Positions 17,645 to 46,255 are shown, numbered from the stretch's first letter. The stretch is 64,000 nucleotides of DNA from Chlorobiota bacterium (GCA_016700335.1 CP065014.1:1883788-1947787); one strand, 5' to 3'. Translations and numbers: made by a program. Notes: a model not told the origin generated them from the letters alone.

Positions 17645-18952
17645 AGCAATGTAAGTAACCCCATTTATTTTAGTTGGAAATCTTTTGAAATCAAATCCAA
17701 ATTTGCTTGGGAAAGACTCCCATTTATCTGTACCGCCTTGAGCTATTTCAATGTCATTATAACCAGCAGAATCACATACAAAATTTACAAAATTTGCTGG
17801 ATAATCAGCTGATGGGGTAGTGAATAACAATTGAGTTTGATATTGCTCAACAGGAGTAAGAACTAACATAAAAGGATCGCTTTCTACTCCATCCCAGTTC
17901 TGAGAATTGTTAATCTGTTGTACATAAATAGGTTTATCTCCAGTAAATTCTATTAATTCTCTTTTATCATGTAAATAACTAAACCAACCTTCACCTTCAT
18001 TCCCACCTTTTTTATTTAAAGTACCCCATTCAGTACCATTTATAAATATTTTAGTATTATCAGCACCAGCAAAAACTCTATAAAGATCTGTTTTTCTTCT
18101 TGTTGCGAAAGGAATTGAATGATATATTTTACCCCAAGCGGTAACTGGTAACATCATTTCTTCAATATGATCACAAGCTGAGTATCTTGGGTCAGGTAAC
18201 CAAGGGCATAAACATCCAGAACAAACTGATATTGGTTTATTAGCAATTATTTTAGTTCCAGAAAAATCTGCATATTGATCAATAGATTGACAAGAAAATC
18301 CATCTCCTTTATTCATTGTAATATTAAAAGGACCATTTTTTCCATTATGATTAGGAGATCTTTGTCCAGAAGGTAATTCAATAGTAATTTCTGTATCATC
18401 AAATGGAGATGATATAACGAATTGAGATGGGAATTTTCCAGCAAAAGCAGATCCCTGTAAATTATCTGGTCCGGCTGCAATAATATATTCTTTTCCGATA
18501 GCATTTGTTGGTAATAACAACATACCATCACTTGTAAACGAAGTTCTGTTCATTCCATAAACTACAATTGGTGCATCAGCTTTTACATAAACAGCTTTAC
18601 CTGGATAAACTTGATCGTCACTTACTGGATCAGTAGTTGAAAATGGAAACATCTGTGCATCTATTGTAGATAAATCATAAGTAACAATATCAAATGGTAC
18701 AGTATAAATTGTTTTCTTATTTTTAGAGCCAATTGCAATTGTTACTTTGGTTCTAACTCCAGCAGTAATATATAACCTACAATACTTAATTGAAGCACCA
18801 TATTCATAATTTGCAGGAAAATTAAAATAATATTCTTTTCCAGAATTTGAAGGTCCGAATGGAATATTTGGTAATGGCTTACCATTTTGAGCAAATGAAA
18901 AACTTAATACAATTAGAAAATTAATTGTAAATAGTAGTAGATTTCTGTACAT
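14858..18952 (-). CDS. Giant secreted T9SS-cargo protein, paralog B (same architecture as paralog A)
   Basis: Signal peptide MYRNLLLFTINFLIVLSFSFAQ. The N-terminal ~437 aa are homologous to paralog A but diverged, with indels. The remaining ~927 aa are identical to A. Confidence 0.85.
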   Translation of the reverse strand: MYRNLLLFTINFLIVLSFSFAQNGKPLPNIPFGPSNSGKEYYFNFPANYEYGASIKYCRLYITAGVRTKVTIAIGSKNKKTIYTVPFDIVTYDLSTIDAQMFPFSTTDPVSDDQVYPGKAVYVKADAPIVVYGMNRTSFTSDGMLLLPTNAIGKEYIIAAGPDNLQGSAFAGKFPSQFVISSPFDDTEITIELPSGQRSPNHNGKNGPFNITMNKGDGFSCQSIDQYADFSGTKIIANKPISVCSGCLCPWLPDPRYSACDHIEEMMLPVTAWGKIYHSIPFATRRKTDLYRVFAGADNTKIFINGTEWGTLNKKGGNEGEGWFSYLHDKRELIEFTGDKPIYVQQINNSQNWDGVESDPFMLVLTPVEQYQTQLLFTTPSADYPANFVNFVCDSAGYNDIEIAQGGTDKWESFPSKFGFDFKRFPTKINGVTYIAKTIAINPGTYRVRGPKPFAGYIYGFGSFDSYGYPLSVAVGDLSRPDKDAPVIKDTIDCFGNYEATTTDLPDDSKIRSNISTIDLDPDATYNYSITVADFIPGTDREVKYSLKVIDLSQNAQAVVIISDQAGNYTIDTIQYNAFNVTITPSPVNFGTLFPGVKVVKKLTITNLAEREVKLKNIQLQRNTPGFKILSPIGGFTLSKAGDPGSSIVAQIEFTSTTNGKYEDSVGIENECNKKYISLIKAKVGAPLINVTDKDFGTLIVNTTSPAYTIEVSNPIDPALSDAILTVTGAKGPKKLEFKLVDGMLAFPFDLAPGESKTLRITFSPGSVASYLDTIVFSSNATGVDSLGILQGKGIQPQLIATNYDWGRKRVGTGWYTGKVMLKNYGTAPAIIRGLLASTGDINDFRLPQTTLDALSDLNISANDSVGLDVEFNPTTTAGRQMVMNYNVVQGPSGVKSTLDGFGTRPGLITQDYDYGTMEVGTTVSTIRDVEFQAVGQYLDSVTITEWEFSNQTPENDYSSSESVVNVKLATPIVLKPGNTTYTMKGSFIAKAVGQRVARMKAITLDGVDTTSKWSGNGFSLSTSIVGKGANADNICAPKDTILNAEVSNSGQKDVKVLGLKLIGLSGDFSLVSGVTSFTLKPGEKRQIGIKYSPSKTGKEVGKLEVTHDAGTPTSPMLLDISGSSYAETISSGVVLTGTRDNKGEIGGKLGCVVSLLGGFSNLVDLKSIQLTINYDPVQLSIDESSIQIGGAGVSYTKNNLSKAGIYVIDVQNPGGFTTSGELLKFNMDVQLTEKLEREIDVKIITNQGCTTINPSTTKIDIYPICGLSLRAIELINGTYTLSQNVPNPFNPSTKIKYSIGLEGRTEIVLQNMEGKEIQRLVSEDQKAGNYELTVDVGNLPSGNYYYTIKSGVWTETKMMTVVK

Positions 18953-21400: not shown

Positions 21401-21885
21401 TTCGATTTAACTTTTTCATTAGCATTTCTTAATCTTTTGCTAAGCATTTTTATAATACCCTTTGCAACTTCCACCCTTGTATCCATTAATTCAAATAAAT
21501 CTTCTTGATCTAATTTCAATAAGAGTGTATCTGTTATTGTTGTTGCGCTAGCACTTCTAGCTTCAGTATCTAACAAAGACATTTCACCAAAAAGATCTTT
21601 TTCTTTAAGAATAGCAACAACAACTCCACCCTTATGTATTTTAACTTCTCCTTTGAAAATTACATACATACATTGACCAATTTCACCTTCATTAAAGATT
21701 AAGCTATTAGCTTCCAATTCTAGTTCTTCTAAAATTTCACTCACCTCCACTAAAACATTTGTTGGAGTTTCAGAAAAAATGTCTAATGATTTTAAAGTTA
21801 GAATTTTTTCAATTTGTAATAATCTCTCACTTGAATCGCTTTCTTTTTTATGCATTTGAACTAAATTTTTATAATTATTAGGCAA
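21397..21885 (-). CDS. Cyclic-nucleotide-binding (cNMP/CAP-effector) domain protein
   Basis: FNEGEIGQCMYVIFKGEVKIH...LFGEMSLLD..ARSASATT is the canonical cNMP-binding cassette. No DNA-binding HTH follows. The start overlaps the upstream gene's stop by 8 bp. Confidence 0.8.
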   Translation of the reverse strand: MPNNYKNLVQMHKKESDSSERLLQIEKILTLKSLDIFSETPTNVLVEVSEILEELELEANSLIFNEGEIGQCMYVIFKGEVKIHKGGVVVAILKEKDLFGEMSLLDTEARSASATTITDTLLLKLDQEDLFELMDTRVEVAKGIIKMLSKRLRNANEKVKSN

Positions 21886-24655
21886 TACTCATTGCAGTCT
21901 CTTTAATTAAATTATCACTACTTAAAGTTAAGAAATCTATATACTCATTTTTATTATTCCCATGATATTCGTTTAGAGAATAAGTACATGCTGCTTTAGT
22001 CCATCTATCAAAAAAATATATTTCATCATAAATTATGATTTGGAATATATCATTTTCTGTATATGATGAATTTGATTTATCATTAAATTTCAAACTTTTA
22101 ATTTTCATATCATTAGGTTCAAATAATTCAATAAATCTTAGAGAAATATCTTTATCAACTTCAATTTCAAAAACTTCTAATGCATTTGCAATTGTATCCT
22201 TTTTATTGTAATGAAAAGCAGTTCTAACTTTTTTTATTTTATTAGAATCATAAATGAATGATAGTATTAATAATAATACTTCTCTTAATTTTTCTAATTC
22301 ATATACCAATGCGTCTAACAGATGATGCATTCCATCAGTTTGAGAAAGGAAATTTATCATATTAGTAATTTTAGTAGCAACATTTAAAGACTCTTGAATT
22401 AAATCATTAAAAAATAATTTATTATCTTCTTTAACTCTAAAATCAGTTATATGGAGAGCTTGTAAAATAGTATATCTATTTACTTTATCAAATTTTAAAT
22501 GTTCTAATAATACCTTAATAGATAAACTTGAATTAATATTCCCAAGAATGTAAATTAATTTTTGGTTTTGATTCTGAGTTAATGTATTTATATATAATAT
22601 CTTTTTAATTTCAACAACAGAATTATCACCTCCATTAATCAATGCATCGATACATATTTTTTCATATTTAATATCTTTAAATAATTTAACTACTTTTTCA
22701 ATTAAATACTTGTTTTTAATTTTACCACATGCAATTATACTTTCTTTCACAACTATAAATTCTTCATCATTTAAAAGTTTTAAAATTGGTTTGTAAAATG
22801 AATTTGTTTTTAAATCTCCTATAATTTCAGCTGCAGTTTTTCTTATTATAGTATAAGGTGAATTTATCATTTCAATTAATTTTTGTCCAGCAACTACAAT
22901 TGCAGATATTCCACCACTACTCATCAAACCGATAATAGCAGATTTTGATAATTCTATATTATCAGAATTCACATAAATTTCTGATTCATCAACATTTTCA
23001 GGTGTAAGCAAACAAATCGACTTTATTAAATCTGGGAGTATAAATAAATATGATTCATCATTTATCATTTTATTAATTAAAGGAACAGCATTAATTAATT
23101 TTAAATGAGTTATCAAAGCAATACTTTCTCTAATAACAATTTCATTTTTATTTTCTAACCCAGCAAGAACAATCTCAGATAATTCTGGTGTGAACCTTTT
23201 GCCTACTATGTTTAAAGTATGCATAGCTTCAGATTGATCACCAAATTTTACTTTTTCTAAAAAAACTGATTTTGTTCTCTCATTAGTAATATCTAGTTCT
23301 GATCCAAAGGAATATCGTTTGCTAATTGCTTTAACTAAAGTTCTAACATATTCATTTTCAATTAAAAATATTATCAGAATCCATACAATAATAAATACAA
23401 CTATTAAACCACTTAAGGCAATTATATTAAGTCCTTCATCGCTTGTTCCTTTTGTAAAATGAACGAATAGAAAAGAAATTATACCACTAAATACTAAAGC
23501 AAAAGGATCTACAACACCTTTAACAACAGCATGACTTTTAAGTCTTAGTTGCAAAGAAAGTGGCTGCATCATTGACAAAAAAACTGGATCTTGTATAGAT
23601 GTTTTAAGCATTTCAGATAAAACAGCTGCTAATCCAAACAAATATAAAGTTGAAGTAATTGAATTGTTATTACTTAATAATGAGTTTATTAAAATGTATC
23701 CTAAAATTAATATTAGAATAATTGGAGATATTAATAATGAGAATTTTAAACCAATTCTGTTCATTACTCTACCAGTTAGAACTAATCTTATTAATAATGC
23801 TAAAAGCCTACCAAGTGCAAAAAATTTACTTATAAATCCAGCAAGTTCAATATCTGTGTGAGAATGATGTTTTACTTCAACATAAAAACCAAAATTTATT
23901 AATGTAACAATTGTTATAATTATAAATGATAAAATTGATAAGTATTTTATTAGTTTATTGACAAAAAAATCTGATAATGAAAATGACCCTAATAAATCAG
24001 TGGTACCATGTTCCAATTTAATTTTATTATGATGTACATGTTTTACTTCAATGTCTAACTTACCAGCTTTATCTAAATTTCTGCAAACAAAAAAAGAAGA
24101 CAAAATGAAAAATGATGATACATATAATGCATTTTCTGTTGAAACATAATGCAATAATATTGGAACTACAGAATACCCAATTAATTTTGCAGGAATATCT
24201 CCTGCACCAATAATACCAAACAATCTTTTACTTTGCCTTATATCAAAAGTCAATGCTGCAACTCCCCAAAATTCTAAATTATTTAAAAGGTAAATTGCAT
24301 AATACCAACAGAACATAAAAAAAATGACCCAGGGAGATTGGTCATAAATTAAAAAGAATCTTAAAAGCAAAATACTAAATCCCATAAAGAGAATTACCCC
24401 TGGAGCAGTTTTCTTAACTGGCAATTTATGTTCTATTTTAGTATAAAAATATCCTATAACAAGCAACAAAGCACCTGAAACTACATAAACATTTGAAAGT
24501 AATGATGGTTGAAATCTATTAAGAAATAATGTTAAAGCGATTGTATTAAAAACAGCTACTCCTATTCCTTGTAACAATTGAAGTAAGAAAAATCTTGATA
24601 CAAGGAATACCTCATCATCATGAATATTTAACAATTGTAAAATTCTTTTTTTCAT
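21878..24655 (-). CDS. Multi-pass membrane protein (ATP/ADP-translocase/MFS-like, ~12 TM) fused to a HEAT-repeat cytoplasmic domain
   Basis: The N-terminal ~430 aa are hydrophobic helices resembling the TLC/Npt-type MFS fold. Residues ~470-720 show HEAT/PBS-lyase-like repeats (AGLENKNEIVIRESIALITHL; SPYTIIRKTAAEIIGDL; LLNDEEFIVVKESIIACGKI). The C-terminal ~200 aa are unassigned. Confidence 0.55.
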   Translation of the reverse strand: MKKRILQLLNIHDDEVFLVSRFFLLQLLQGIGVAVFNTIALTLFLNRFQPSLLSNVYVVSGALLLVIGYFYTKIEHKLPVKKTAPGVILFMGFSILLLRFFLIYDQSPWVIFFMFCWYYAIYLLNNLEFWGVAALTFDIRQSKRLFGIIGAGDIPAKLIGYSVVPILLHYVSTENALYVSSFFILSSFFVCRNLDKAGKLDIEVKHVHHNKIKLEHGTTDLLGSFSLSDFFVNKLIKYLSILSFIIITIVTLINFGFYVEVKHHSHTDIELAGFISKFFALGRLLALLIRLVLTGRVMNRIGLKFSLLISPIILILILGYILINSLLSNNNSITSTLYLFGLAAVLSEMLKTSIQDPVFLSMMQPLSLQLRLKSHAVVKGVVDPFALVFSGIISFLFVHFTKGTSDEGLNIIALSGLIVVFIIVWILIIFLIENEYVRTLVKAISKRYSFGSELDITNERTKSVFLEKVKFGDQSEAMHTLNIVGKRFTPELSEIVLAGLENKNEIVIRESIALITHLKLINAVPLINKMINDESYLFILPDLIKSICLLTPENVDESEIYVNSDNIELSKSAIIGLMSSGGISAIVVAGQKLIEMINSPYTIIRKTAAEIIGDLKTNSFYKPILKLLNDEEFIVVKESIIACGKIKNKYLIEKVVKLFKDIKYEKICIDALINGGDNSVVEIKKILYINTLTQNQNQKLIYILGNINSSLSIKVLLEHLKFDKVNRYTILQALHITDFRVKEDNKLFFNDLIQESLNVATKITNMINFLSQTDGMHHLLDALVYELEKLREVLLLILSFIYDSNKIKKVRTAFHYNKKDTIANALEVFEIEVDKDISLRFIELFEPNDMKIKSLKFNDKSNSSYTENDIFQIIIYDEIYFFDRWTKAACTYSLNEYHGNNKNEYIDFLTLSSDNLIKETAMSIA

Positions 24656-30903: not shown

Positions 30904-30993
30904 CGGAGAGAGAGGGATTCGAACCCTCGGTAAGGATATAATCCCTACGACGGTTTAGCAAACCGTTGATTTCAACCGCTCATCCATCTCTCC
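30904..30993 (-). tRNA. tRNA-Ser (anticodon GCT)
   Basis: 90-nt manual fold: acceptor GGAGAGA/TCTCTCC, anticodon arm ACGGT-TTGCTAA-ACCGT, long variable arm, T-arm GAGGG-TTCGAAT-CCCTC, discriminator G. No CCA is encoded. Confidence 0.9.
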
Positions 30994-31039
30994 GATTTTT
31001 GATTGAAATTATTTTTTAATATAACTAATTTATAAACAG

Positions 31040-31113
31040 TACCGAAGGAGGGATTTGAACCCCCGACACACGGATTATGATTCCGTTGCTCTAACCTACT
31101 GAGCTACTTCGGC
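31040..31113 (-). tRNA. tRNA with CAT anticodon (Met elongator, or Ile2 if lysidine-modified)
   Basis: 74-nt manual fold: GCCGAAG acceptor (G1-U72 wobble), D-arm GCTC..GAGC, anticodon arm ACGGA-ATCATAA-TCCGT, T-arm GGGGG-TTCAAAT-CCCTC. Not initiator-like: no C1xA72 mismatch and no GGG/CCC anticodon stem. Confidence 0.85.
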
Positions 31114-31599
31114 AAAAATACAAGAAAGATTTTAAATTAAAAAAAGGAAATACGAAACAGGTATTCTTAAATCTTGTTTCCTATATCCTAATTTTCTTGA
31201 TATTACAATGGGTGCAAATGGATTCGATTCTAATTTTATTTACAAATCATTAATATTTTTATAAGCCATCTAATAGTATTAATTCCCTACAAAAACTCAA
31301 CGCTACAAGATTACAATACGAAAATAAGACATTTTTTACATTCGCATAAAATTTTTTATTAAAATTGTTATAACTTCAATATTTGAGTTATCTCAACTTC
31401 CAGAATATACTCAACTCCTGGAACTTTTTTTATATTGTGTCTGAACTACCATTTTTACAATATCATTGCTATGAATTTTCAAACATAATATCATATTATA
31501 GATGCTAGTATATTAAAACTATGTTACACAATTAATATTTTTTTTTTATAATTATTGCATTGGTCTTATTTTGTTAGTAATTTTAAACTTGATACTAAT

Positions 31600-31968
31600 T
31601 CAATAATTTATTTGTGTTATGTAATTCAATTCTAAACTCAGGCTTTTATCCAAATTGGTTCGAGTATCACAAATACTAAAACCATCACTATATTTTGGAA
31701 TTTTGTTTTTTACACCATAAAATAATTTTTGTAAAAAATAATTAAATTTAATATCTTTATTGTATTTGGTATATCTCAAAATCCAGTCATCTAATCCATC
31801 ACCATTTATATCACCTATACTACCAGTATTTACTCCCAAGTTTCCCCTTCCCCATATTTGCTTTAACTCTACTGCCTTTGGGTTCGGTTTTATTTTATCT
31901 ATTTGCTGGGCTTTTGATGTGCTTGTTATTGCTAGCATTATTAACATTATTTTTATTGCTTTTTTCAT
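31600..31968 (-). CDS. Short secreted protein with a single FG-GAP/VCBS-like Ca-binding motif (possibly a truncated remnant)
   Basis: Signal peptide MKKAIKIMLIMLAITSTSKAQ. GDINGDGLDDWI is an FG-GAP-type motif. At 122 aa it is far shorter than usual FG-GAP repeat proteins, and it sits in a gene-poor tRNA-flanked region. Confidence 0.4.
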   Translation of the reverse strand: MKKAIKIMLIMLAITSTSKAQQIDKIKPNPKAVELKQIWGRGNLGVNTGSIGDINGDGLDDWILRYTKYNKDIKFNYFLQKLFYGVKNKIPKYSDGFSICDTRTNLDKSLSLELNYITQINY

Positions 31969-32333
31969 AAATTTTTTTTGTTTATACTTTATTTTTTTTT
32001 GGTATTATTTTATTCTATAAAAAAATTCTAAATATTTCATATTTAATCTTGAATTGGATTTACAATAGTAGGAGTTTTTCAATATAATTATTCCATTGTG
32101 ATTCTGTTTTTTGATTTTTGTTTTTGAATCATGAATAAAGTTTGGCGTGATGTTGATTTGTATGTGAGGTATATTACTATTGTATAAGTTTATAGCAACC
32201 TTTATTTAACCATTTGTATCCTTAATAACAAAAGTCATTTGTAATTCTTCATTGAATATCCATTTTTTTTTAACTGTTAATGCAAATGGTTCTTCATTTT
32301 CTGTTATGCATATTTTTATAGTATAAACCCAAT

Positions 32334-32370
32334 AAAAAAAGCGGAACAATTTAGTTGTTCCGCTTTTTTT
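32334..32370 (-). terminator. Hairpin terminator (bidirectional form) immediately downstream of tRNA-Val
   Basis: aaaaaaa-GCGGAACAA-tttag-TTGTTCCGC-ttttttt: a perfect 9-bp stem flanked by an A-run and a T-run. Confidence 0.8.
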
Positions 32371-32395
32371 ATGATTATTTCATTTTAATTATTTG

Positions 32396-32470
32396 TGGGC
32401 GCTGAGGGATTCGAACCCCCGACCCCCTGCTTGTAAGGCAGGTGCTCTGAACCAGCTGAGCTAAGCGCCC
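32396..32470 (-). tRNA. tRNA-Val (anticodon TAC)
   Basis: 75-nt manual fold: GGGCGCT/AGCGCCC acceptor, anticodon arm CCTGC-CTTACAA-GCAGG, T-arm GGGGG-TTCGAAT-CCCTC, discriminator A. Confidence 0.9.
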
Positions 32471-32607
32471 ATTATTCTAAAAAATAGAATGCAAATATAA
32501 ATTTATTCTTTGAATTGAACGAATATAATTTAGATTTATTTTTAAGTTAACTTGAATTTGTAGTTTTTAATCTTAATATTTTATTTGATTTTAAATTATA
32601 ATTTTAA

Positions 32608-33729
32608 TCAAATCTCTTTTTCATATAAAGCATACTTTTTATAAACCTCACCATTCATCATTTCTAAAGAACGATTCATCAATATGTTGTCATCTAAAAT
32701 CCATGATGCTTCTCCCTCAGAATATGGATATTTCTTAGTCATTGCTGTACCAACTTCGTAATACAATATTGAATCAATTCCTCTTTTTTGAAACTCTGGT
32801 AAAACTCCTAAAACTAATATTCTTCCTCTTGTAATATTTTTCTTTTTAAATAACAAACAATAAATTGCACCAATCAAGGAACCTCCTTTGTTGAACTTAA
32901 AAGCTTGGTTGATATCAGGTAATCCTAATGCAAAACCTACAACTTTACCCTCCGATTCAGCTATAACAACAAAATCATCAATAACTATTTGTTTTAAATC
33001 TTCAGCTAAAAAATCAAATTCTTCGTCAGTCATTTTTACAAATCCCCAGTTAGGTTCCCAAGCAGAATTGTAAATTGTTTTTATAATTTTTACATCCTCA
33101 ATAAAATATTTTTTAGGTTTTAATCTTATTTTTCTGACTGTAATTTTTTCTCTAATTCTTACTAGATTTTGTACCCTTTCTAATTTTGGAGAGATAAATT
33201 TATCTGCCATTAATCTGTAAGCAAGTAAAGTTTTTACTTTTTTAAACCCAAAATTTTCAATTAACAAAATATAATATTCAGGATTATAAGTCATTAAAAT
33301 TTGTGGTGAATCGTTAAAGCCTTCAATCAATAACCCAGCTTCATCATTTAAAGAAGGGTTAACGGGTCCCCTAATATGAGTACAACCTTTTGTTTTAAGC
33401 CATTGTTCAGCAGTTTGAAATAATAAATCTGAAACAGATTGATCATTTATAGATTCAAAGAATCCAAAAAATCCAATTTTATCATTGAAAGTGTTATTGT
33501 GATTGTAATTTATAATTGCTCCAATTCTACCAATAATTTCTCCATTATTTTCACAATAAAACAACTCCATTTCAGAATGTTTGAAAAATGGATTCTTTTG
33601 TTTATCTAATAATTTTATTCTGTCAGCTAAAATTGGTGGAACCCAATTGACATCATTTTTATAAATTTTCCAAACTATTTTAATAAATTTCTTAAGCTCA
33701 GAACTATTTGATACAGTAATAATTTTCAT
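32608..33729 (-). CDS. GNAT-family N-acetyltransferase-like protein
   Basis: The C-terminal half has an acetyl-CoA motif-A-like segment, VVGFALGLPD...RILVLGVLPEFQKRGIDSILY. Confidence 0.5.
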   Translation of the reverse strand: MKIITVSNSSELKKFIKIVWKIYKNDVNWVPPILADRIKLLDKQKNPFFKHSEMELFYCENNGEIIGRIGAIINYNHNNTFNDKIGFFGFFESINDQSVSDLLFQTAEQWLKTKGCTHIRGPVNPSLNDEAGLLIEGFNDSPQILMTYNPEYYILLIENFGFKKVKTLLAYRLMADKFISPKLERVQNLVRIREKITVRKIRLKPKKYFIEDVKIIKTIYNSAWEPNWGFVKMTDEEFDFLAEDLKQIVIDDFVVIAESEGKVVGFALGLPDINQAFKFNKGGSLIGAIYCLLFKKKNITRGRILVLGVLPEFQKRGIDSILYYEVGTAMTKKYPYSEGEASWILDDNILMNRSLEMMNGEVYKKYALYEKEI

Positions 33730-33795
33730 ATAAAGTCTTTTGAAACAATAATTAATTTGAAAAAATGTTTTACTCTATAAAACTGCTAATAATAT

Positions 33796-34278
33796 TTATG
33801 AAAGTTCTTTTATTTGATCTGGAGTTAATTTTAAATCATTAGTTAACTTAGATAAAGTTGGTGCCGAAAAATACATAAAAAGTAAGATAATTCCCACAGG
33901 GATTAACAATTTATAATCCGCTGTTAACATAAATCCTACTACACATAGCAACGCCGGGGCTTCTAATAATGCTAGTTTCAAGATAAATGCACCAGTAAAG
34001 ATTGCAAATTTATCTTTGATATTATAACTTTCAATTATAGTATCAATTTTTTTCTTATATAAAATATTCGATAGAAATATTCCAGTTACAAATAGCAAAA
34101 CAGCAATTAATAAAATTAAAGTGCTGGAAATTCCAGTTACTCCAAAAGACTCACCTAAACTTACAAGATATGCCATTGCAATTGCAAATATTAATGGTCC
34201 TGTACAAATTGCTAAGTGCATTATTTTAACAGTATTAAATATTTGCTTTGGTGATTTACCTTCCATTGAATTATTCAT
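33796..34278 (-). CDS. Hypothetical integral membrane protein (4 TM)
   Basis: Four hydrophobic helices; I recognise no family. Confidence 0.45.
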   Translation of the reverse strand: MNNSMEGKSPKQIFNTVKIMHLAICTGPLIFAIAMAYLVSLGESFGVTGISSTLILLIAVLLFVTGIFLSNILYKKKIDTIIESYNIKDKFAIFTGAFILKLALLEAPALLCVVGFMLTADYKLLIPVGIILLFMYFSAPTLSKLTNDLKLTPDQIKELS

Positions 34279-34492
34279 TTATAAATAAAATAATTAATTA
34301 AATTTTTTTTTGAATTTAAGTGTTTAATGTGAACAAGCAATACTTAGATTTAGTCTTAACTACATTGATAATTTTAAAAATAATTTTTTAATTATTAATT
34401 TTTTTATTTCAACTAATATCTTTGATTGAAATTCGTATATTTGCAATCCTTTTTAATAATCATCTGTATAGTTCAATAAATTTTGTTTACTA

Positions 34493-34565
<73 letters not shown>

Positions 34566-36236: not shown

Positions 36237-38447
36237 TTAAACATAAGAGTTGATAAGTTTTAATTCAAAACCTGAAACTTCTAACTTTAATCTTTCAAGA
36301 TTTGCGTTTAATGCTGATATTTCAAATTCATATTTTTTGATTTGGGATCCTAAATCGTGATATTCATATTGTTTATTTAACAATCTATTCTCAATAGAAA
36401 CAACATCTTCTCTAATATCTTTTCTATCATTAGATTTGTTTTTCGAGAAAACTATTTTCCCAATAATTCCAGCACAAACAAATAAAAAAAATGGAGCTAA
36501 AATAAAGCTTGCACTTCTTAAAATGTCTTGAGTTTTAACTTCAATTGGAAAAGATTTTACAGTTAAAAGTAGTAAAATAAATATTGCTAAAAAAAACAAA
36601 CTAGTTCTGAATATAAGATTTTCTTTTGAAGTCATTGACCCTGAATTATCTCTTTTTAAATTTCTAAACTCAACTTTTAAGTCGCTCATTGACCTTTCAG
36701 CTTCATTTCGAAGAGTATTATTCATTTCTAAATCAGCGTTAGTTTTAATTATTTGTTTATTAATTTCTTGAATAGAAACTTCTCTTTCATTAATTTCTTT
36801 TTCCAAATAATTTCTTCTCCAAAACCATAATTCTCTAACTTCGTCTAATATTTTTAAATAATTTGTTTTATCAACACACCTATTATATCTTCTTAATTTA
36901 TTTGCAATATCTTCGTTCATACTGAAGATACTATTTTTATTTTCAATTAAATCTGTTGAATTAGAAATCAACTCGCGAACAATATGTGCCTCACCGCCAA
37001 AACACCTTGCAATTGCTTCATCATCAAAATTATGAAAGTAAGCTAATCTTCTAATAAGATGTTTTTCATGATTTTGATATTTTTCAAGAAATGAGAATGA
37101 ATCATAAAAAGACTGAGCGGCTTCTTGAAACTCAATTGCCATTTCTGTACTTTCCTGCCAAGTAGAATCTCTTAAAGAAGTTCTAATAATTTCATAAACT
37201 TCAAACTTTCCTTCTTTTTTTTGACTTGGTTGAACAATTTCACTTGAGTATCTTAAGTAATCATATGCTTCAGTTGCAACCATTTCATTAGGAATACATG
37301 GGAAACATTGTAAAGCATCAGAATCAAACCACTCAAGAAAAGAAGCACATCTAATCCAATTACATTGCTCTGGTGTCTTGTACCAAAATATCCTTTGTTC
37401 TGCTAAAGAATTCATTAGAGCTTTATCATCTCCAATTAAATTATTTTTATTTGAATCAATCCATAGTGAAGCTAAATAGGGCAACCCATGAGTAAGATTC
37501 ATAACATTTTCAATCTCTTGTTTTGAGTTTAACCCAATATCCGATAAATAATTTTTTAATTCATCTTCATTAAATGGTTCAATTCTAACTTCAGTAATAC
37601 CAGTTCTAAATCTATCCCATCTTCTTTCAACATCAGTCATAGTAAGCTTTTCACGACCTGCAATTACAAATCGAACATCAAAAAAATCTCTTATAAAAGC
37701 ATCTTCTGGTAAATATGATGATTTATAAATTTGAAGATCACCAAATCTTTTAGTGTAGAAATAGGGTAATAAAGATTCAAGCAACCAAGGATTTACTAAA
37801 GGAGAAATTTTTTCAAAAGTGTCAATAAAAAATATAATTTTTCTAGGTGCTTCATTATTGGATATATAATCTTGGAGCGACTGCATTTTCTCCAATAATG
37901 GGAAATGAGTTGTCATCATATCAATAATAAAACTTTCAGTTACAACTTTAGAAGTATCAAGAATTAATTTTTGATCATCTGAACTGTTAAATTGATTTTT
38001 AATTGCAATTTCAAGAGCTAATTTTTCATTTTCTAAAACTTTGTAATCTTCGCTATTTTGCAAAGCAAGATTATTATTTCTAAGTTCTCTTAAAACAGGT
38101 ATAACATCAATTCCAAGTTTACCAATAATTTGTAAATATCTTCTTCTACGTGAATCAGTTTCATCTAAATTAAATCTTGGTTTTGCTTTGCCTAATGGTT
38201 TGAATGTTGATGCAAGTGAATAAACAAATTCAGGTAATGTACTTATTGTAATGTCTTCATTTGTAACATAAATTCCATCTGAGTTACCTTCAGAAATAAT
38301 ATTATTTACAACTTCATTAAGTAAAGTAGTTTTGCCAGAACCGAATAGTCCTGAAACCCCTATAATAAGTGACTTATCAGGGGATTCTCTTTTACCTTTT
38401 AATAGGTTTGTAATAGTTCCTAATTCTTTTTTTCTACCTATGAACAA
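36237..38447 (-). CDS. NB-ARC/STAND-like P-loop NTPase with C-terminal coiled-coil, 2-TM hairpin and second coiled-coil
   Basis: N-terminal FIGRKKEL (AAA_16/STAND-type). Walker A GLFGSGKTT (aa 33-41, nt 38325-38351). Walker B IIFFIDTFE (aa ~204-212). Sensor-like RFVIAGRE (259-266). IEPFNEDELKNYL (289-301). GLPLA-like HGLPYLASL (320-328). Two hydrophobic helices at aa ~610-667 (nt 36447-36620) are flanked by heptad-like charged segments. Only a TTG start is available, at 38447; a stop lies 2 codons upstream. Confidence 0.7.
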   Translation of the reverse strand: MFIGRKKELGTITNLLKGKRESPDKSLIIGVSGLFGSGKTTLLNEVVNNIISEGNSDGIYVTNEDITISTLPEFVYSLASTFKPLGKAKPRFNLDETDSRRRRYLQIIGKLGIDVIPVLRELRNNNLALQNSEDYKVLENEKLALEIAIKNQFNSSDDQKLILDTSKVVTESFIIDMMTTHFPLLEKMQSLQDYISNNEAPRKIIFFIDTFEKISPLVNPWLLESLLPYFYTKRFGDLQIYKSSYLPEDAFIRDFFDVRFVIAGREKLTMTDVERRWDRFRTGITEVRIEPFNEDELKNYLSDIGLNSKQEIENVMNLTHGLPYLASLWIDSNKNNLIGDDKALMNSLAEQRIFWYKTPEQCNWIRCASFLEWFDSDALQCFPCIPNEMVATEAYDYLRYSSEIVQPSQKKEGKFEVYEIIRTSLRDSTWQESTEMAIEFQEAAQSFYDSFSFLEKYQNHEKHLIRRLAYFHNFDDEAIARCFGGEAHIVRELISNSTDLIENKNSIFSMNEDIANKLRRYNRCVDKTNYLKILDEVRELWFWRRNYLEKEINEREVSIQEINKQIIKTNADLEMNNTLRNEAERSMSDLKVEFRNLKRDNSGSMTSKENLIFRTSLFFLAIFILLLLTVKSFPIEVKTQDILRSASFILAPFFLFVCAGIIGKIVFSKNKSNDRKDIREDVVSIENRLLNKQYEYHDLGSQIKKYEFEISALNANLERLKLEVSGFELKLINSYV

Positions 38448-38504: not shown

Positions 38505-38981
38505 TCAACTTTCTGTATTCTTTTTAAGTATTTTATACAAATATATTACAACTAATACATTTATTACAATTATAGTAACTTTTATTAATGTTGGATTTAA
38601 AACTAGATGATAAAACTCAAAAGGAATCAAACTCGAAGTAGAAATTATTATAAGATATTCCGCCCATTTTTTCTGAAGATAAACTCCAATCCCTTCTGTT
38701 ATTAAAACAATTGAATAAACTATTGCTAAAACCCCAGTAGTTTGTAAATTTCCCTTTTCTAAAAAGGTAAGTACTTTGTTTAAGATCCATTTTATATAGC
38801 TTAGATGTTCAATCATCAATTCTTCTTGAATATTCAATACTATATTTTCAATGTAATTTAGTTTGATGTAAAAAAGAGATGATATCCCAAATACAAGAAG
38901 AAAAATTCCTTTAATAAATTTCCAAATTGCAATATATACCAATCCTTTATCATGTTTAACTTTTGTATCTAAATTTTTCAT
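38505..38981 (-). CDS. DUF2127-family membrane protein
   Basis: Four TM helices. KGLVYIAIWKFIKGIFLLVFG and ITEGIGVYLQKKWAEYL are typical of DUF2127. Confidence 0.6.
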   Translation of the reverse strand: MKNLDTKVKHDKGLVYIAIWKFIKGIFLLVFGISSLFYIKLNYIENIVLNIQEELMIEHLSYIKWILNKVLTFLEKGNLQTTGVLAIVYSIVLITEGIGVYLQKKWAEYLIIISTSSLIPFEFYHLVLNPTLIKVTIIVINVLVVIYLYKILKKNTES

Positions 38982-38988
38982 AAAAAAA

Positions 38989-40710
38989 CTAATCTTCTTT
39001 TTTTGATTTTATTGAATCTTCTTTTAAATTATTTATTCTTAAAATTGATTTTGATTTAATCTCTTTTAAAATTATATCAAGTTTGGAATTTTTATTAATA
39101 GGAATTAGTTCACCCTCATGTCTTTTTCTATAAATGTAAGTAGAAATTATCCTCATTTCGTCAATTTCAGGCTTAGATAAATTCACTTTAATATTAACTT
39201 TATTAAAATATATATCATCAATAATTTCTTTAATTTTATAACTGTCAAATCTAATAACTTCATATTGCAATACATGCCCCACTTTACCTCTTACAATGAA
39301 TATTGCTTCAAGTATATCTTCATCAATAGTTGAAATAAAAACTCCATTTTTATTATTAATACTACCAGTTAATTCTGAAGTATTTTGAAAAACTTTATTT
39401 AGATTTTGAATCAAATTTCTAACATTTACTGCTGTTTCAAAATCAAGAATATCTGAAGCAGTTTTCATTTGAGCTGTTAATAAATCTATAACTCCGCCAT
39501 CATTTCCACTTAAAAAATTTTTTACATTATGAAGTTCTTTTTTATAATCAATTTCACTTTGTAACAAAGCACAAGGAGCATCACATTTGTCAATTTGATA
39601 GTATATACAAGGAATTACTTCTTCTGATGGGGTGGGCATATTTATACATTTTCTAAGTTTGAAACTTTTTTCAATAACCTGCTGAATAGTTAAAGCTGAA
39701 TCAAAATTTGGGAAAGGTCCATAATATTCACTTTCATGATTATCAATTTCTCTTACAATAGAAATCATTGGAAATTTTTCAATATAGTCTATCTTTAAAA
39801 ATGCAGAACCCTTATACCTTTTTTGTAGTGTATTATACTCAGGTCTTAATTCTTTAATCAATTTTGATTCTAAGATCAACGCTTCAATCTCTGAATTTGT
39901 TTCAATTATATTTACCTCTCTTGCCAAAGAAACCATTTTTGAAATCTTTTTTGCTAAAGTTGAGGAAACAGAAAAATAATCTGATAATCGATTTTTCAAA
40001 TTTTTTGCTTTACCAACATATAAAACTTCTTTTTTTGAATTTATAATTTTATAAACTCCGCAAGAATTAGGGAAAGTTTTTATTGAATTTGAAATTTTTG
40101 AAACATGCTTAGGAAGAGTTTTTAGATTTGTTAATGTTTTATGCTGGAATCTTAAAACATCATCTAAATATTCACAATCGTGTTCATTTTGAAGTATCTC
40201 TAATAATTCAATCAGGATATTTGCTGTTGCCCTGGCATCGTCTATTGCTGAATGATGATTCTTTAATCTAATTCCAAAGTATGAAGCCAAGCTAGATAAA
40301 CCATTTCTTCTTCTTTTAGACAAAATTCTTTTTGCTAATCTTAATGTGCAAAGATTTGGTGCATGTAGGGGTAAAATATTATGCCTTTGAAATTCAGCTT
40401 GAACAAAATTAAAATCAAAGGCTAAATTATGAGCCGTAAATACTGCTTCTTTAGGATACCACTCTCTTATTAAAGGTAGGGTCTCAGATGCTTTTGGAGC
40501 ATTTATAGCAATTGCATTTGATATACCAGTCATTTCCTGAACATAAGGTGGGATAAATTGTTCGGGGTTTATTAATGCATGGTTTTCACTAATAATTTTT
40601 CCATTTAACACATTTACACATCCGATTTCCATAATTCTATTTTTGCTTGCACTAGAGCCAGTTGTTTCAACATCTGTTACAGCAAAAGTAATTTCTTCTA
40701 TTAATGGCAT
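38989..40710 (-). CDS. DEDDh (DnaQ/epsilon-like) 3'-5' exonuclease fused to a UvrC-N-terminal-like GIY-YIG nuclease (Cho-type fusion)
   Basis: Exo motifs FAVTDVETTG, AHNLAFDFNF and HHSAIDDARATA. GIY-YIG motif CGVYKIINSKKEVLYVGKAKNLKNRLSDYF...E..LI....P.YN. A Cys-rich UvrC-like segment follows. Confidence 0.8.
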   Translation of the reverse strand: MPLIEEITFAVTDVETTGSSASKNRIMEIGCVNVLNGKIISENHALINPEQFIPPYVQEMTGISNAIAINAPKASETLPLIREWYPKEAVFTAHNLAFDFNFVQAEFQRHNILPLHAPNLCTLRLAKRILSKRRRNGLSSLASYFGIRLKNHHSAIDDARATANILIELLEILQNEHDCEYLDDVLRFQHKTLTNLKTLPKHVSKISNSIKTFPNSCGVYKIINSKKEVLYVGKAKNLKNRLSDYFSVSSTLAKKISKMVSLAREVNIIETNSEIEALILESKLIKELRPEYNTLQKRYKGSAFLKIDYIEKFPMISIVREIDNHESEYYGPFPNFDSALTIQQVIEKSFKLRKCINMPTPSEEVIPCIYYQIDKCDAPCALLQSEIDYKKELHNVKNFLSGNDGGVIDLLTAQMKTASDILDFETAVNVRNLIQNLNKVFQNTSELTGSINNKNGVFISTIDEDILEAIFIVRGKVGHVLQYEVIRFDSYKIKEIIDDIYFNKVNIKVNLSKPEIDEMRIISTYIYRKRHEGELIPINKNSKLDIILKEIKSKSILRINNLKEDSIKSKKED

Positions 40711-45465: not shown

Positions 45466-45504
45466 ACCTATAAAGTTGTAAATCACAATTTATAGGTTTT
45501 TTTT
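45466..45504 (+). terminator. Rho-independent terminator of ald
   Basis: Stem acctataaa (45466-45474) / tttataggt (45489-45497) followed by a T-run. It overlaps the 3' end of the convergent methyltransferase gene. Confidence 0.65.
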
Positions 45505-46255
45505 ATTTTTTATTTTTCCTACTAATCAAAATCATTCTTTCAGATTTGTTCTGATCATATTCAATTCCATCATAATCTCCAAACAATTTTACACTATCAA
45601 ATCCTATTTCTAATAGCAAATCTAATATTTGATTCATTGAATAAAGTCTAACTTTTTCATTGAAATTAATCTCTTTTATTGGTGATTTCAAATTAATTTC
45701 TTTAACAACAAAATCATCTATAATATATCTTTTTTCAACAACTTCTAAATCTTCAATTTTCTTAATAGAATTAGAAACTAAATTATTTAACAAATAATTT
45801 TTATTTATCAAATCAAGAATGTAAAATCCCCCTATTTCCAATGCTCTAAAATTATTTGCCAAAACCAACTTATCATCTTCAATACAATCAAAATATCCAA
45901 AGCTTGTAAATAATTGAACTATTAATCTGAATTCATTTTCAAATGTAATATTCCTCATATCTGATAACAAATATGTTATATCTAATTTTTCAGCTAAAGA
46001 ATCATTTATTGCAATTTTCAATAAGTTTGAGGAGAGATCTACACCAGTAACAATTGCATTCTTTTTTGCTAATTCAATTGAATGTCTGCCAGCACCACAA
46101 GCTAAATCTAGTACTTTGATTCTATCATTAATATTTAGAAAACTATATATCAAACTAATTGCTTTCTTAGCTTCATTTTGATTTCTATTACTGTACAATT
46201 TCAAATAATGATCTGAAGCAAACCAATCTTCATACCATTCAGATTTTTCAATCAT
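45503..46255 (-). CDS. Class I SAM-dependent methyltransferase
   Basis: Motif I VLDLACGAGRHSIELA. The substrate is unknown. Confidence 0.75.
   Translation of the reverse strand: MIEKSEWYEDWFASDHYLKLYSNRNQNEAKKAISLIYSFLNINDRIKVLDLACGAGRHSIELAKKNAIVTGVDLSSNLLKIAINDSLAEKLDITYLLSDMRNITFENEFRLIVQLFTSFGYFDCIEDDKLVLANNFRALEIGGFYILDLINKNYLLNNLVSNSIKKIEDLEVVEKRYIIDDFVVKEINLKSPIKEINFNEKVRLYSMNQILDLLLEIGFDSVKLFGDYDGIEYDQNKSERMILISRKNKK

What the first reader, a model, noticed from the sequence alone, without database searches (positions are those of the whole stretch)
36237..38447. NB-ARC/STAND-like NTPase with a C-terminal coiled-coil, 2-TM hairpin and second coiled-coil: candidate novel defence or signalling protein
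The 736-aa protein begins directly with the STAND-type 'FIGR..EL' element. Ordered NB-ARC-like motifs follow: Walker A GLFGSGKTT, Walker B IIFFIDTFE, RFVIAGRE, IEPFNEDELKNYL and a GLPLA-like HGLPYLASL. Next come a ~200-aa helical region and a heptad-rich segment. Two hydrophobic helices follow (aa ~610-667: LIFRTSLFFLAIFILLLLTV ... ILRSASFILAPFFLFVCAGIIGKIVF), then a second coiled-coil to the C-terminus. Characterised prokaryotic STAND defence proteins (Avs, bNACHT and similar) usually carry a recognisable N-terminal effector and a C-terminal TPR/WD sensor. Here there is no N-terminal effector, and the only effector-like element is a membrane hairpin embedded in coiled-coil. That layout is compatible with oligomerisation-driven membrane perturbation of the abortive-infection type. 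I do not recognise this architecture as a described system. TTG is the only possible start codon.
Basis: partly seen in the sequence, partly recalled or inferred. Interest (0 to 1): 0.7.

Follow-up and report, generated by a model that had tools for sequence, protein, structure and literature searches.

The report
Membrane-anchored STAND ATPase, undescribed family
This gene encodes an ATP-driven switch protein of the NOD/STAND type, held at the inner membrane by a fixed-length coiled-coil stalk tipped with two membrane helices. It belongs to a sizeable family that no database or paper I searched describes, and it looks like an inherited chromosomal gene rather than a mobile anti-phage gene.

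Summary
ORF 36237-38447 (minus strand, TTG start, 736 aa) encodes an N-terminal STAND-type NOD. This is followed by a 71-residue helix, two strongly hydrophobic helices and a 60-residue heptad-rich helix.

An AlphaFold model (pLDDT 84) matches CED-4, plant NLRs and Orc1/Cdc6. The nearest relatives with a different architecture are AAA_16 STANDs with TPR arrays.

The protein belongs to an undescribed family. At least 95 full-length clusters at 50% identity (604-806 aa) share the same architecture, with no domain swapping. Named members come from Kapaibacteria, Ignavibacteria and Verrucomicrobiota MAGs.

New findings:
- Both stalk arms have near-invariant, equal lengths (68±2 and 70±5 residues).
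- The extreme C-terminus (L-x-E-P-Y/F-V/I) is the best-conserved segment and co-occurs with a conserved Trp at the stalk base.

The defence reading is not supported by context:
- There is one copy per locus, among housekeeping genes.
- Synteny is conserved within subclades.
- Divergence equals that of syntenic neighbours.
- No defence systems lie within about 5 kb in nine loci.
- No phage or plasmid copies were found, and there is no hypervariable region.

Defence is not excluded. Most likely this is a vertically inherited, membrane-anchored oligomerisation switch whose output is directed at the membrane. Its biological role is unresolved.

The parts
36237..38447 (-). Complete ORF, 736 aa plus stop, TTG start
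   Evidence: ORF listing. Upstream in-frame TAA two codons before the TTG. Homologues begin at the same residues.
37578..38447 (-). Nucleotide-binding domain of the NOD (aa 1-290), with parallel strands 27-33, 58-61, 202-208, 256-264 and 284-289
   Evidence: AF2 secondary structure. Foldseek top hits are CED-4, RPP1 and Orc1/Cdc6. Sub-threshold AAA_16/ATPase_2/NB-ARC hits.
38325..38351 (-). Walker A motif GLFGSGKTT (aa 33-41; K39)
   Evidence: G33, G36, G38, K39 and T41 are invariant in A1. G33, G38 and K39 are invariant in the 27-member broad alignment.
37905..38165 (-). About 87-aa helical insertion between Walker A and Walker B (aa 95-181), containing the conserved KNQFN..DDQ(R/K)L.LD motif
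   Evidence: AF2 helices 95-181, with a pLDDT dip to 53-62 at aa 110-140. D157, D158 and L161 are invariant in A1. Its length varies across the wider family.
37812..37841 (-). Walker B strand KIIFFIDTFE (aa 203-212; D209, E212)
   Evidence: D209, T210 and E212 are invariant in A1. D209 is at least 90% conserved in A2.
37650..37673 (-). Sensor-1 strand RFVIAGRE (aa 259-266; R265)
   Evidence: R259, G264, R265 and E266 are invariant in A1. AF2 strand 256-264.
37428..37577 (-). HD1 helical lid with GxP motif HGLPYL (aa 291-340)
   Evidence: T319, L322, P323, Y324 and L325 are invariant. T.G.P.L is conserved in the broad family.
37194..37427 (-). Winged-helix domain (aa 341-418) with the motif EQRIFWYKTPEQ..WIR.A.F..WFD..L.CF. 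This is the most conserved segment in the close clade.
   Evidence: Helices plus beta-hairpin 405-417 in AF2. Lowest column entropy, 0.95 bits.
36861..37193 (-). HD2 / second small alpha-beta module (aa 419-529), with the family signature R.LAYF..FD (aa 466-475) and YN..D (aa 521-527)
   Evidence: AF2. The signature is present across the TM-bearing family and absent from TPR-STAND outgroups.
36648..36860 (-). Stalk arm 1: a single 71-residue helix (aa 530-600) that begins near conserved W541
   Evidence: AF2 helix with pLDDT 89-96. Heptad signal at 546-575. The distance from W541 to TM1 is 68.0±2.1 aa in 134 members.
36441..36629 (-). Two-helix transmembrane hairpin (aa 607-669) with a roughly 17-aa acidic periplasmic loop
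   Evidence: Hydropathy in all homologues. Positive-inside rule. AF2 helices 607-632 and 637-669.
36255..36431 (-). Stalk arm 2: a 60-residue heptad-rich helix (aa 673-731)
   Evidence: AF2 helix with pLDDT 85-95. Strongest heptad signal at 676-736. The distance from TM2 to the C-terminus is 70.5±4.8 aa in 134 members.
36240..36254 (-). Conserved C-terminal tail (INSYV here; family consensus L-x-E-P-Y/F-V/I at the C-terminus)
   Evidence: Y735 is invariant, and L731 and V736 are at least 90% conserved in A1. It is the lowest-entropy segment in the broad alignment. It co-occurs with W541: 86/112 vs 5/25, p=2e-7, not corrected for phylogeny.

Best explanation
The gene encodes a member of an undescribed, architecture-invariant family of inner-membrane-anchored STAND ATPases.

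Shown:
- A cytoplasmic NOD (NBD-HD1-WHD-HD2) with intact Walker A, Walker B, sensor-1 and GxP motifs.
- Two long helices of equal, near-invariant length flanking a tight 2-TM hairpin.
- N-in/C-in topology.
- A conserved C-terminal tail.
- Vertical inheritance in housekeeping surroundings.

Inferred:
- The two long helices pair as an antiparallel coiled-coil stalk of about 10 nm. This holds the NOD at a fixed distance from the membrane and returns the C-terminal tail to the NOD base, near W541.
- As in other STANDs, ATP binding drives self-association of the NODs. Because there is no enzymatic effector or repeat sensor, the stalk-hairpin module acts as both the regulatory (sensor/autoinhibitory) element and the output. 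Assembly gathers the membrane hairpins and changes the local membrane or a membrane-bound partner.
- The biological role is more probably a conserved cellular one (membrane/envelope-associated signalling or homeostasis) than mobile anti-phage defence.
For: STAND identity:
- Motifs are invariant.
- The AF2 model (pLDDT 84) hits CED-4 (E 5e-5), RPP1, Orc1/Cdc6 and a wheat resistosome.
- Some family members pass the Pfam AAA_16 or NB-ARC thresholds.
- The nearest outgroups are AAA_16-TPR STANDs.

Family and architecture:
- The profile search found 103 representatives at E<1e-30.
- Of the top 150, 95 full-length proteins (604-806 aa) and 20 fragments carry the C-terminal hydrophobic block, and none has extra domains.

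Stalk and tail:
- Arm lengths are 68.0±2.1 and 70.5±4.8 aa in 134 members, although the arms are the least conserved sequence.
- The tail and W541 co-occur.

Topology.

Cellular rather than mobile:
- Housekeeping neighbours in every locus examined.
- Subclade synteny.
- Divergence equal to that of neighbours.
- 43% identity retained between genomes of 28% and 64-67% GC.
- Native base composition.
- One copy per locus.
- PADLOC finds nothing but generic-domain cross-hits in 62 neighbouring proteins and in 27 family members.
- Nothing in phage or plasmid collections except NOD-only Streptomyces TPR-STANDs.
Against: - There is no functional data of any kind.
- The pairing of the two arms and the tail docking are inferred from lengths, co-occurrence and a monomer model whose coordinates I could not inspect.
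- The tail/Trp association is not corrected for phylogeny.
- Universality within the lineage was not tested. The genome scan used two very strict peptide patterns and found 13 species.
- About a third of STAND clades are defence-associated (PMC13581612), and membrane effectors are known in defence, so the prior for defence is not small.
- Family members are very divergent, with tiny 90% clusters. That is also compatible with fast evolution.
- No conserved partner gene was found to anchor a cellular role. The envelope-gene neighbourhood (OmpA, NfeD1b, Omp85-like) holds only in one subclade.
Confidence: 0.5

Rival explanations
1. One reading: a single-gene abortive-infection or defence STAND. 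A phage cue releases autoinhibition, the NODs oligomerise into a ring, and the clustered TM hairpins breach or depolarise the inner membrane. This would be a resistosome-like mechanism with a C-terminal, constitutively membrane-embedded effector.
For: - STAND fold with the closest structural matches to cell-death/immune NODs (CED-4, RPP1, G10 resistosome).
- The only effector-like element is the TM hairpin.
- Stand-alone gene with no partner.
- Membrane-acting P-loop defence proteins exist (Tmn, PifA; PMC13001434).
- 198 of 589 STAND clades are defence-associated, interspersed with non-defence clades (PMC13581612).
- The family is highly divergent.
Against: - No defence genes within about 5 kb in 9 loci.
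- Housekeeping synteny conserved within subclades, and divergence equal to neighbours.
- No copies on phages or plasmids.
- No effector or sensor swapping in at least 95 divergent clusters, unlike Avs families.
- No hypervariable region. The WHD and tail are the most conserved parts.
- TM cores are purely hydrophobic and poorly conserved in sequence, as expected of an anchor rather than a channel lining.
- No PADLOC family match in 27 members.
Confidence: 0.27
2. A membrane-remodelling or tethering NTPase analogous (not homologous) to mitofusin, atlastin or bacterial dynamin-like proteins. Nucleotide-dependent self-association of the head domains, transmitted through a rigid stalk to a wedge-like tight TM hairpin, would bend, tether, fuse or repair membrane.
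For: - The layout 'NTPase - helical region - coiled coil - tight TM hairpin - coiled coil' mirrors mitofusin/atlastin (established knowledge; layout).
- In many members the two TM helices are separated by only 3-5 residues.
- Strictly conserved stalk length.
- Two members give weak hits to the dynamin-like LeoBC model (4.4e-5).
- Dynein heavy chains, which combine AAA+ modules with an antiparallel coiled-coil stalk, appear among weaker Foldseek hits.
Against: - The NTPase is a STAND/AAA+-type NOD, not a dynamin-type G domain.
- No STAND is known to remodel membranes.
- The LeoBC and dynein hits are weak and probably reflect generic helices.
- No contextual link to membrane-repair genes.
Confidence: 0.12
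3. An Orc1/Cdc6-like AAA+ protein that uses its winged-helix domain to bind DNA and tether it to the membrane (chromosome or plasmid organisation).
For: Orc1/Cdc6 and ORC subunits are among the Foldseek hits (E 3e-4 to 1e-3). The WHD is the most conserved segment. In the window and its closest relatives (L018/L019, L025), the gene follows a DnaQ-exonuclease/GIY-YIG repair gene.
Against: - STAND-specific features (N-terminal FxGR..EL helix, GxP motif, HD2) are present, and the closest sequence outgroups are TPR-STANDs.
- The conserved WHD motif is acidic/aromatic rather than basic.
- The association with the repair gene is limited to one subclade.
Confidence: 0.04

Closest known systems
Bacterial AAA_16-type STAND NTPases with C-terminal TPR arrays (e.g. 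Streptomyces 'tetratricopeptide repeat protein'/ATP-binding proteins; MalT/AfsR-like MNS/SWACOS-type NODs)
   Same: Homologous NOD. The profile search reaches them at E 1e-18 to 1e-35 over profile positions about 1-450. tblastn to Streptomyces plasmid genes covers aa 2-425 at about 21% identity, E 2e-9. They share the N-terminal F-x-G-R..E-L helix, Walker A/B, sensor-1 and GxP motifs.
   Different: They carry long TPR sensor arrays (about 1000-1190 aa in total) and no membrane segments. Here the TPR array is replaced by a coiled-coil / TM hairpin / coiled-coil module and a conserved C-terminal tail, and an 87-aa helical insert sits inside the NBD.
Apoptosome/NLR NODs (CED-4, Apaf-1, plant NLRs such as RPP1 and CC-NLR resistosomes)
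   Same: Best structural matches of the model (Foldseek E 5e-5 to 6e-4, probability 1.0, about 450-500 aligned columns). By analogy, ATP-dependent ring assembly. CC-NLR resistosomes also act on membranes through helices.
   Different: Sequence identity is only 12-14%. Pfam NB-ARC is below threshold for the query. Resistosome helices are N-terminal, soluble until activation and amphipathic. Here the helices are C-terminal, strongly hydrophobic and presumably always in the membrane.
Avs (antiviral STAND) and bNACHT defence proteins
   Same: STAND core in a single large polypeptide.
   Different: The defining tripartite layout (N-terminal effector, NTPase, C-terminal repeat sensor) is absent. There is no PADLOC hit, no defence-island context and no effector diversity.
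Membrane-bound P-loop defence NTPases: KAP family (PifA type) and YobI family (Tmn)
   Same: A P-loop NTPase tied to the inner membrane by a pair of TM helices. Tmn forms a decameric membrane complex and acts on the membrane/ion balance (PMC13001434). This makes it a functional analogue for the defence rival.
   Different: In KAP and YobI/Tmn proteins the TM helices are inserted within or beside the P-loop domain, and the folds are not STAND (PMC13001434). Here the TM hairpin lies about 270 residues after the NOD's GxP motif, at the tip of a coiled-coil stalk. The KAP_NTPase Pfam hit scores 15.7 bits against a cut-off of 20, and there is no Tmn hit in PADLOC.
Mitofusin/atlastin-type fusogens and bacterial dynamin-like proteins
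   Same: Order of elements: NTPase head, helical stalk, tight membrane hairpin, C-terminal coiled-coil or helix.
   Different: These are unrelated NTPases (dynamin-type GTPase versus STAND ATPase). The resemblance is one of layout only.

Membership tests
STAND NTPase superfamily | P-loop NBD with Walker A (GxxxxGK[ST]) and Walker B (hhhhD) | tested here: met
   GLFGSGKTT (aa 33-41) and IIFFIDTFE (aa 204-212). The key residues are invariant in 23 homologues. G33/G38/K39 are invariant and D209 is at least 90% conserved in 27 diverse members.
STAND NTPase superfamily | Sensor-1 arginine at the end of the strand after Walker B (hhhTSR-like) | tested here: met
   RFVIAGRE, with G264, R265 and E266 invariant. 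It lies on AF2 strand 256-264.
STAND NTPase superfamily | Helical lid (HD1) with a GxP/GLPL motif, followed by a winged-helix domain | tested here: met
   HGLPYL, with L322, P323, Y324 and L325 invariant. AF2 shows a helical bundle followed by helices plus beta-hairpin 405-417. Foldseek aligns about 450-500 columns to CED-4, RPP1 and Orc1/Cdc6.
STAND NTPase superfamily | Recognition by curated profile models (AAA_16, NB-ARC, NACHT, nSTAND) above threshold | tested here: inconclusive
   The query is below all cut-offs (AAA_16 23.9 vs 32.6; NB-ARC 18.1 vs 23.5). Family members P0152 and P0175 pass AAA_16, and P0039 and P0064 pass NB-ARC marginally.
NB-ARC (AP-ATPase) clade specifically | Full-length PF00931 match, including the ARC subdomains and the MHD motif | tested here: not met
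   The PF00931 hit covers only aa 11-52 (profile positions 7-45 of 248), below threshold. No MHD-like His motif was identified in the WHD.
Avs / antiviral STAND | N-terminal effector domain plus C-terminal repeat (TPR-like) sensor | tested here: not met
   The NOD starts at residue 2. The C-terminal part is coiled coil / TM / coiled coil. No PADLOC Avs hit in the query or in 27 relatives.
Avs / antiviral STAND | Association with defence islands or mobile elements | tested here: not met
   No defence system within about 5 kb in the window or in 8 other loci with 52 neighbouring proteins. No phage or plasmid copies. The sample is small and was not tested genome-wide.
KAP NTPase / YobI (Tmn) | TM helices inserted within or adjacent to the P-loop domain; KAP or YobI-type NTPase fold | tested here: not met
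   The only hydrophobic segments are at aa 612-666, far downstream of the NOD. KAP_NTPase scores 15.7 bits, below the 20-bit cut-off. No Tmn hit. The definition is taken from PMC13001434.
Dynamin-like / mitofusin-type membrane NTPases | Dynamin-type G domain (G1-G4 motifs) | tested here: not met
   No dynamin or GTPase family hit. The fold is STAND/AAA+-like. There are only weak LeoBC hits in 2 of 27 relatives.
New family proposed here (TM-hairpin STAND) | NOD plus the R.LAYF..FD signature, a roughly 68-aa helix, a 2-TM hairpin, a roughly 70-aa helix and a C-terminal aromatic-aliphatic tail | tested here: met
   The window protein has all of these elements. Its tail (NSYV) lacks the E-P of the consensus but keeps Y-V.

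The most novel reading that the evidence does not exclude
A lineage-fixed bacterial 'membrane resistosome': a STAND/NLR-like protein whose death or immune effector is its own permanently membrane-embedded C-terminal hairpin. A ruler-like coiled-coil stalk would hold it inactive with the C-terminal tail docked on the NOD. ATP-driven ring assembly would convert 2N anchoring helices into a membrane lesion. This would be a new effector logic for prokaryotic NLR-like immunity or programmed cell death, encoded outside defence islands.
Probability: 0.25. Interest if true: 0.8.

Novelty: new variant of a known kind. Interest (0 to 1): 0.55.

Why it matters
STAND/NLR proteins are central switches of immunity and cell death in all domains of life. 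Described prokaryotic ones are either soluble effector-NOD-repeat proteins or transcription regulators.

This family differs. It has at least 95 clusters at 50% identity, found so far only in uncultured Kapaibacteria, Ignavibacteria, Verrucomicrobiota and unnamed metagenomic bacteria. Its NOD has no repeats and no enzymatic effector, and it is wired to the membrane through a stalk whose length is conserved to within about two residues.

If the role is cellular, it is a rare example of a non-defence, non-transcriptional STAND and a handle on envelope signalling in poorly studied phyla. If it is immune, it shows a new way for an NLR-like protein to kill through the membrane, and it illustrates that defence genes can hide outside islands.

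The fixed-length stalk and the conserved C-terminal tail give directly testable mutational targets.

Tried and rejected
1. A word-indexed homologue search with the diverse alignment A2 returned only the same 28 close relatives. A search with the Ignavibacteria member P0060 returned 3 proteins. Neither widened the set of members for which context can be retrieved.
3. A hand-made degenerate DNA pattern for R-N-L-A-Y-F-x-x-F-D returned 73 metagenome loci. Only 5 encode family members, all on contigs of about 3 kb or less with no usable context.
4. The viral-contig scan with the close-clade patterns found nothing. Foldseek against viral models gave nothing below E 1e-3. PHROGs gave nothing.
5. A PDB sequence-profile search gave only P-loop noise.
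6. I looked for covariation between the lengths of the two stalk arms as a test of pairing. It cannot be tested because neither length varies (r=0.06). The invariance itself became the finding.
7. Names and taxa for distant members: 30 look-ups yielded names for only about 6, all hypothetical or ATP-binding proteins from MAGs.
8. I considered a functional link to the upstream DUF2127 gene. It is adjacent only in the window's own low-GC subclade, so I rejected it as a family-wide partner. The same applies to HATPase_c_2 in L003 and to NfeD1b/OmpA in the high-GC subclade.
9. The PADLOC hits of neighbours (ZorB, CARF_LolE_TM, DEDDh, mad2/3/8, Cas3g) were rejected as generic-domain cross-hits. Pfam shows that the neighbours contain OmpA, FtsX, DnaQ, SAM-methyltransferase and helicase/ATPase domains. 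The per-protein assignment of the mad, Cas3g and PbeA hits was not shown by the tool.
10. A domain-only re-prediction for a cleaner Foldseek comparison was not run.
Full report
**1. The observation**

The ORF at 36237-38447 lies on the minus strand. It is 736 aa long and starts with TTG. An in-frame TAA sits two codons upstream, so no alternative start can precede the 'FIGR' element. All 22 aligned homologues start with M-F/L-[VI]-G-R at the same position. The gene has the base composition of its surroundings: GC 0.27 against 0.28 for the window.

Hydropathy finds exactly two hydrophobic segments, at aa 612-630 and 648-666. The same two are found in every homologue. Basic residues cluster on both outer flanks (5.3 and 5.5 K+R per 20 aa), against 2.0 in the net-acidic loop of about 17 aa. 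The NOD and both long helices are therefore cytoplasmic and the loop is periplasmic.

AlphaFold2, run with the 23-sequence alignment, gives mean pLDDT 84 and pTM 0.61. It predicts a five-stranded NBD, helical and winged-helix modules, one unbroken helix at 530-600, TM helices at 607-632 and 637-669, and another unbroken helix at 673-732. A simple heptad scan exceeds the 99th percentile of shuffled sequence at 546-575 and 676-736.

**2. What kind of NTPase it is**

For the query itself, Pfam gives only sub-threshold hits to AAA_16, ATPase_2, NB-ARC, nSTAND5 and KAP, all confined to aa 2-96. NCBIfam and PADLOC give nothing meaningful. A PDB sequence-profile search gives only P-loop noise.

The structure is informative. 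Foldseek against the PDB returns these hits, each over about 450-500 aligned columns with probability 1.0:
- CED-4, E 5e-5
- the plant NLR RPP1, E 3e-4
- archaeal Orc1/Cdc6, E 3e-4
- a wheat resistosome, E 6e-4
- ORC subunits

A profile search of 1.84 billion representatives shows that the closest proteins with a different architecture are AAA_16-type STANDs of 1000-1190 aa with long TPR arrays. tblastn against plasmids hits only Streptomyces STAND-TPR genes, over aa 2-425. Some divergent family members pass the Pfam thresholds for AAA_16 or NB-ARC.

The protein is therefore a genuine STAND NOD, of the AAA_16 type rather than NB-ARC proper. An 87-residue helical insertion (aa 95-181) separates Walker A from Walker B. 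It is conserved in the close clade (KNQFN..DDQRL.LD) but varies in length across the wider family.

**3. The family**

The word-indexed search found 28 full-length relatives at 33-68% identity. All come from metagenome-assembled Kapaibacteria or 'Chlorobi'-type bacteria and all are annotated as hypothetical. A scan of GTDB species representatives with two strict peptide patterns found 13 species of the same lineage.

The exhaustive profile search found far more: 103 representatives at E<1e-30 and 386 at E<1e-10. Among the top 150, the breakdown is as follows:
- 95 are full-length proteins of 604-806 aa (median 723) with the hydrophobic block 60-160 residues from the C-terminus.
- 20 are fragments with the same feature.
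- 35 lack the feature and are TPR-STANDs or N-terminal fragments.

The few named members are from Kapaibacterium, Bacteroidota, Ignavibacteria and Verrucomicrobiota MAGs.

No family member carries any additional domain. A signature R.LAYF..FD in HD2 separates the TM-bearing family from the TPR outgroups. No Pfam model covers the C-terminal half. PADLOC run on 27 diverse members gives only weak P-loop or helix cross-hits, the best being 2.7e-6. PHROGs gives nothing. Full-text searches turned up no description of this layout. The nearest described membrane NTPases, KAP and YobI/Tmn, have their TM helices within or beside the P-loop domain (PMC13001434).

**4. New structural regularities**

Across 134 full-length members sharing only 15-68% identity, two distances are almost constant:
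- From a conserved Trp (W541 here, at the start of the first long helix) to the hydrophobic block: 68.0±2.1 residues.
- From the end of the hydrophobic block to the C-terminus: 70.5±4.8 residues.

Yet the two helices and the TM hairpin are the least conserved parts in sequence. Equal and invariant arm lengths are what an antiparallel two-helix stalk of about 10 nm would require. This is an inference, because I could not inspect the model coordinates.

The last residues (consensus L-x-E-P-Y/F-V/I-COOH; INSYV here) form the lowest-entropy segment of the broad alignment. An aromatic-aliphatic tail is present in 86 of 112 members that keep the Trp, but in only 5 of 25 that have lost it. The odds ratio is 13 and p=2e-7, not corrected for phylogeny. 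The background frequency of such a tail in random ORFs is 5.5%. This fits a tail that returns to the base of the stalk and the NOD.

**5. Context and evolution**

The window is ordinary chromosome. Near the gene it encodes a polyprenyl synthase, CinA, a PLP lyase, four tRNAs, a GNAT, a GH3 hydrolase, the target gene, DUF2127, a DnaQ-exonuclease/GIY-YIG/UvrC-like fusion, LysRS, TenI, alanine dehydrogenase, ferrochelatase, GcvT and PriA.

PADLOC on ten neighbours gives only a generic DEDDh hit and a generic SAM-methyltransferase hit.

Context in other loci:
- The closest relative (68% identity) keeps DnaQ-GIY-YIG and DUF2127 upstream, but has ComEA-like, RsmD and L20/L35/IF3 genes downstream.
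- High-GC Kapaibacteria share the order E1 dehydrogenase - OmpA - 541-aa unknown - X - NfeD1b - Omp85-like, where X is the gene studied here.
- A third subclade shares a different block: D-Ala-D-Ala ligase, UDG, PurT and a hexapeptide transferase upstream, with an amidase and TatA/B downstream.
- Distant members sit between YCII and RelA/SpoT-Suf, or between BamD and Mfd.

No partner gene is conserved across subclades. There is one copy per locus.

PADLOC on 52 proteins lying within about 5 kb in eight loci gives only generic-domain cross-hits.

Relative to one reference locus, X is 53-58% identical in seven syntenic loci. This lies between NfeD/OmpA (62-68%) and the Omp85-like and 541-aa proteins (41-48%). 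X therefore evolves like its neighbours. The protein keeps 43% identity between a 28%-GC genome and genomes of 64-67% GC. No copy was found in phage genomes, viral contigs or plasmids.

**6. Interpretation**

Its functional reading, abortive infection by oligomerisation-driven membrane damage, is mechanistically reasonable, but none of the usual genomic hallmarks of defence support it:
- no island context
- no mobility
- no patchy signature that I could detect
- no effector or sensor shuffling
- no fast-evolving region

By the criteria used in the 2026 STAND census (defence genes within 5 kb, or a known effector domain; PMC13581612), this clade would fall among the roughly two-thirds of STAND clades that are not defence-associated.

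I therefore favour a vertically inherited, membrane-anchored STAND switch. The NOD oligomerises with ATP. The stalk-hairpin-tail module acts as both regulator and output. The cellular role is membrane- or envelope-associated. My confidence in this is about 0.5.

A chromosomally fixed immune or cell-death function is the main rival, at about 0.27. A mitofusin- or atlastin-like remodelling role is at about 0.12, and a DNA-tethering role at about 0.04.

What is shown: the fold class, motifs, topology, family size, invariant architecture, arm lengths, tail conservation, context, and divergence relative to neighbours.

What is inferred: arm pairing, tail docking, oligomerisation, membrane-directed output and biological role.

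**7. Limits**

- Universality within the lineage was not tested, because the single genome scan relied on strict patterns.
- All members come from uncultured organisms.
- Context is known for about 13 distinct loci only.
- The PADLOC release used dates from 2023.
- Coiled-coil and TM calls come from my own simple scans plus AlphaFold, not from dedicated predictors.

Noticed in passing
window 10510-14598 (-) and 14858-18952 (-): Two tandem paralogues of 1362 and 1364 aa, 89.6% identical. Each has an IgGFc_binding domain, Ig-like/ASH domains and a T9SS C-terminal sorting domain. They lie in a stretch with GC 0.33-0.35 against about 0.27 elsewhere, and with strongly negative GC skew. A similar 1437-aa protein lies near the family member in the Ignavibacteria locus L021.
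   Followed up: partly
window 38505-40710 (-): Three genes are co-directional and closely spaced: a DnaQ-type exonuclease / GIY-YIG / UvrC-motif fusion (573 aa), a 7-nt gap, a DUF2127 membrane protein (158 aa), a 57-nt gap, then the STAND gene. No terminator-like site was found. The same order occurs in the closest relatives (L018/L019, L025) but not in other subclades. A possible operon was not tested.
   Followed up: partly
L024 4987-13452; also L001, L005, L006, L008, L009, L014, L020: In high-GC Kapaibacteria the family member sits in a conserved block of envelope-related genes: OmpA-domain protein - 541-aa protein with no Pfam hit - STAND - NfeD1b membrane protease - Omp85-like barrel. 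This may hint at an envelope role, but it is restricted to one subclade.
   Followed up: partly
L003 9541-9948 (+): In one relative (P0022) a 135-aa HATPase_c_2 protein (RsbW-like anti-sigma kinase fold) lies 52 nt upstream of the STAND gene. It is preceded by a 594-650-aa protein with no Pfam hit. This was not seen elsewhere.
   Followed up: no
whole window vs loci L001-L024: The window genome is very AT-rich (GC 0.28), whereas relatives carrying the orthologue range up to GC 0.67. The compositional spread within one lineage is unusually wide. The organism was not identified beyond being Kapaibacteria-like, inferred from the homologues' names.
   Followed up: partly
window 30904-34565: Four tRNA genes are scattered among small ORFs with no family hits (122 aa at 31600-31968; 160 aa at 33796-34278), 2-5 kb from the STAND gene. 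No integrase or mobile-element signature was seen in the ORFs scanned.
   Followed up: partly
window 21878-24655 (-): A 925-aa protein combines an MFS transporter-like N-terminal part with HEAT repeats. This is an unusual fusion.
   Followed up: no
window 45503-46255 (-): A 250-aa protein hits the PADLOC 'mad2' model (8e-13). Pfam shows a generic UbiE-like SAM methyltransferase domain. It is probably a cross-hit rather than a defence gene.
   Followed up: yes
family members P0039, P0126, P0174, P0175: In several divergent subclades the two hydrophobic helices are separated by only 1-5 residues, against about 17 in the window protein. This implies a very tight or possibly re-entrant hairpin.
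   Followed up: no
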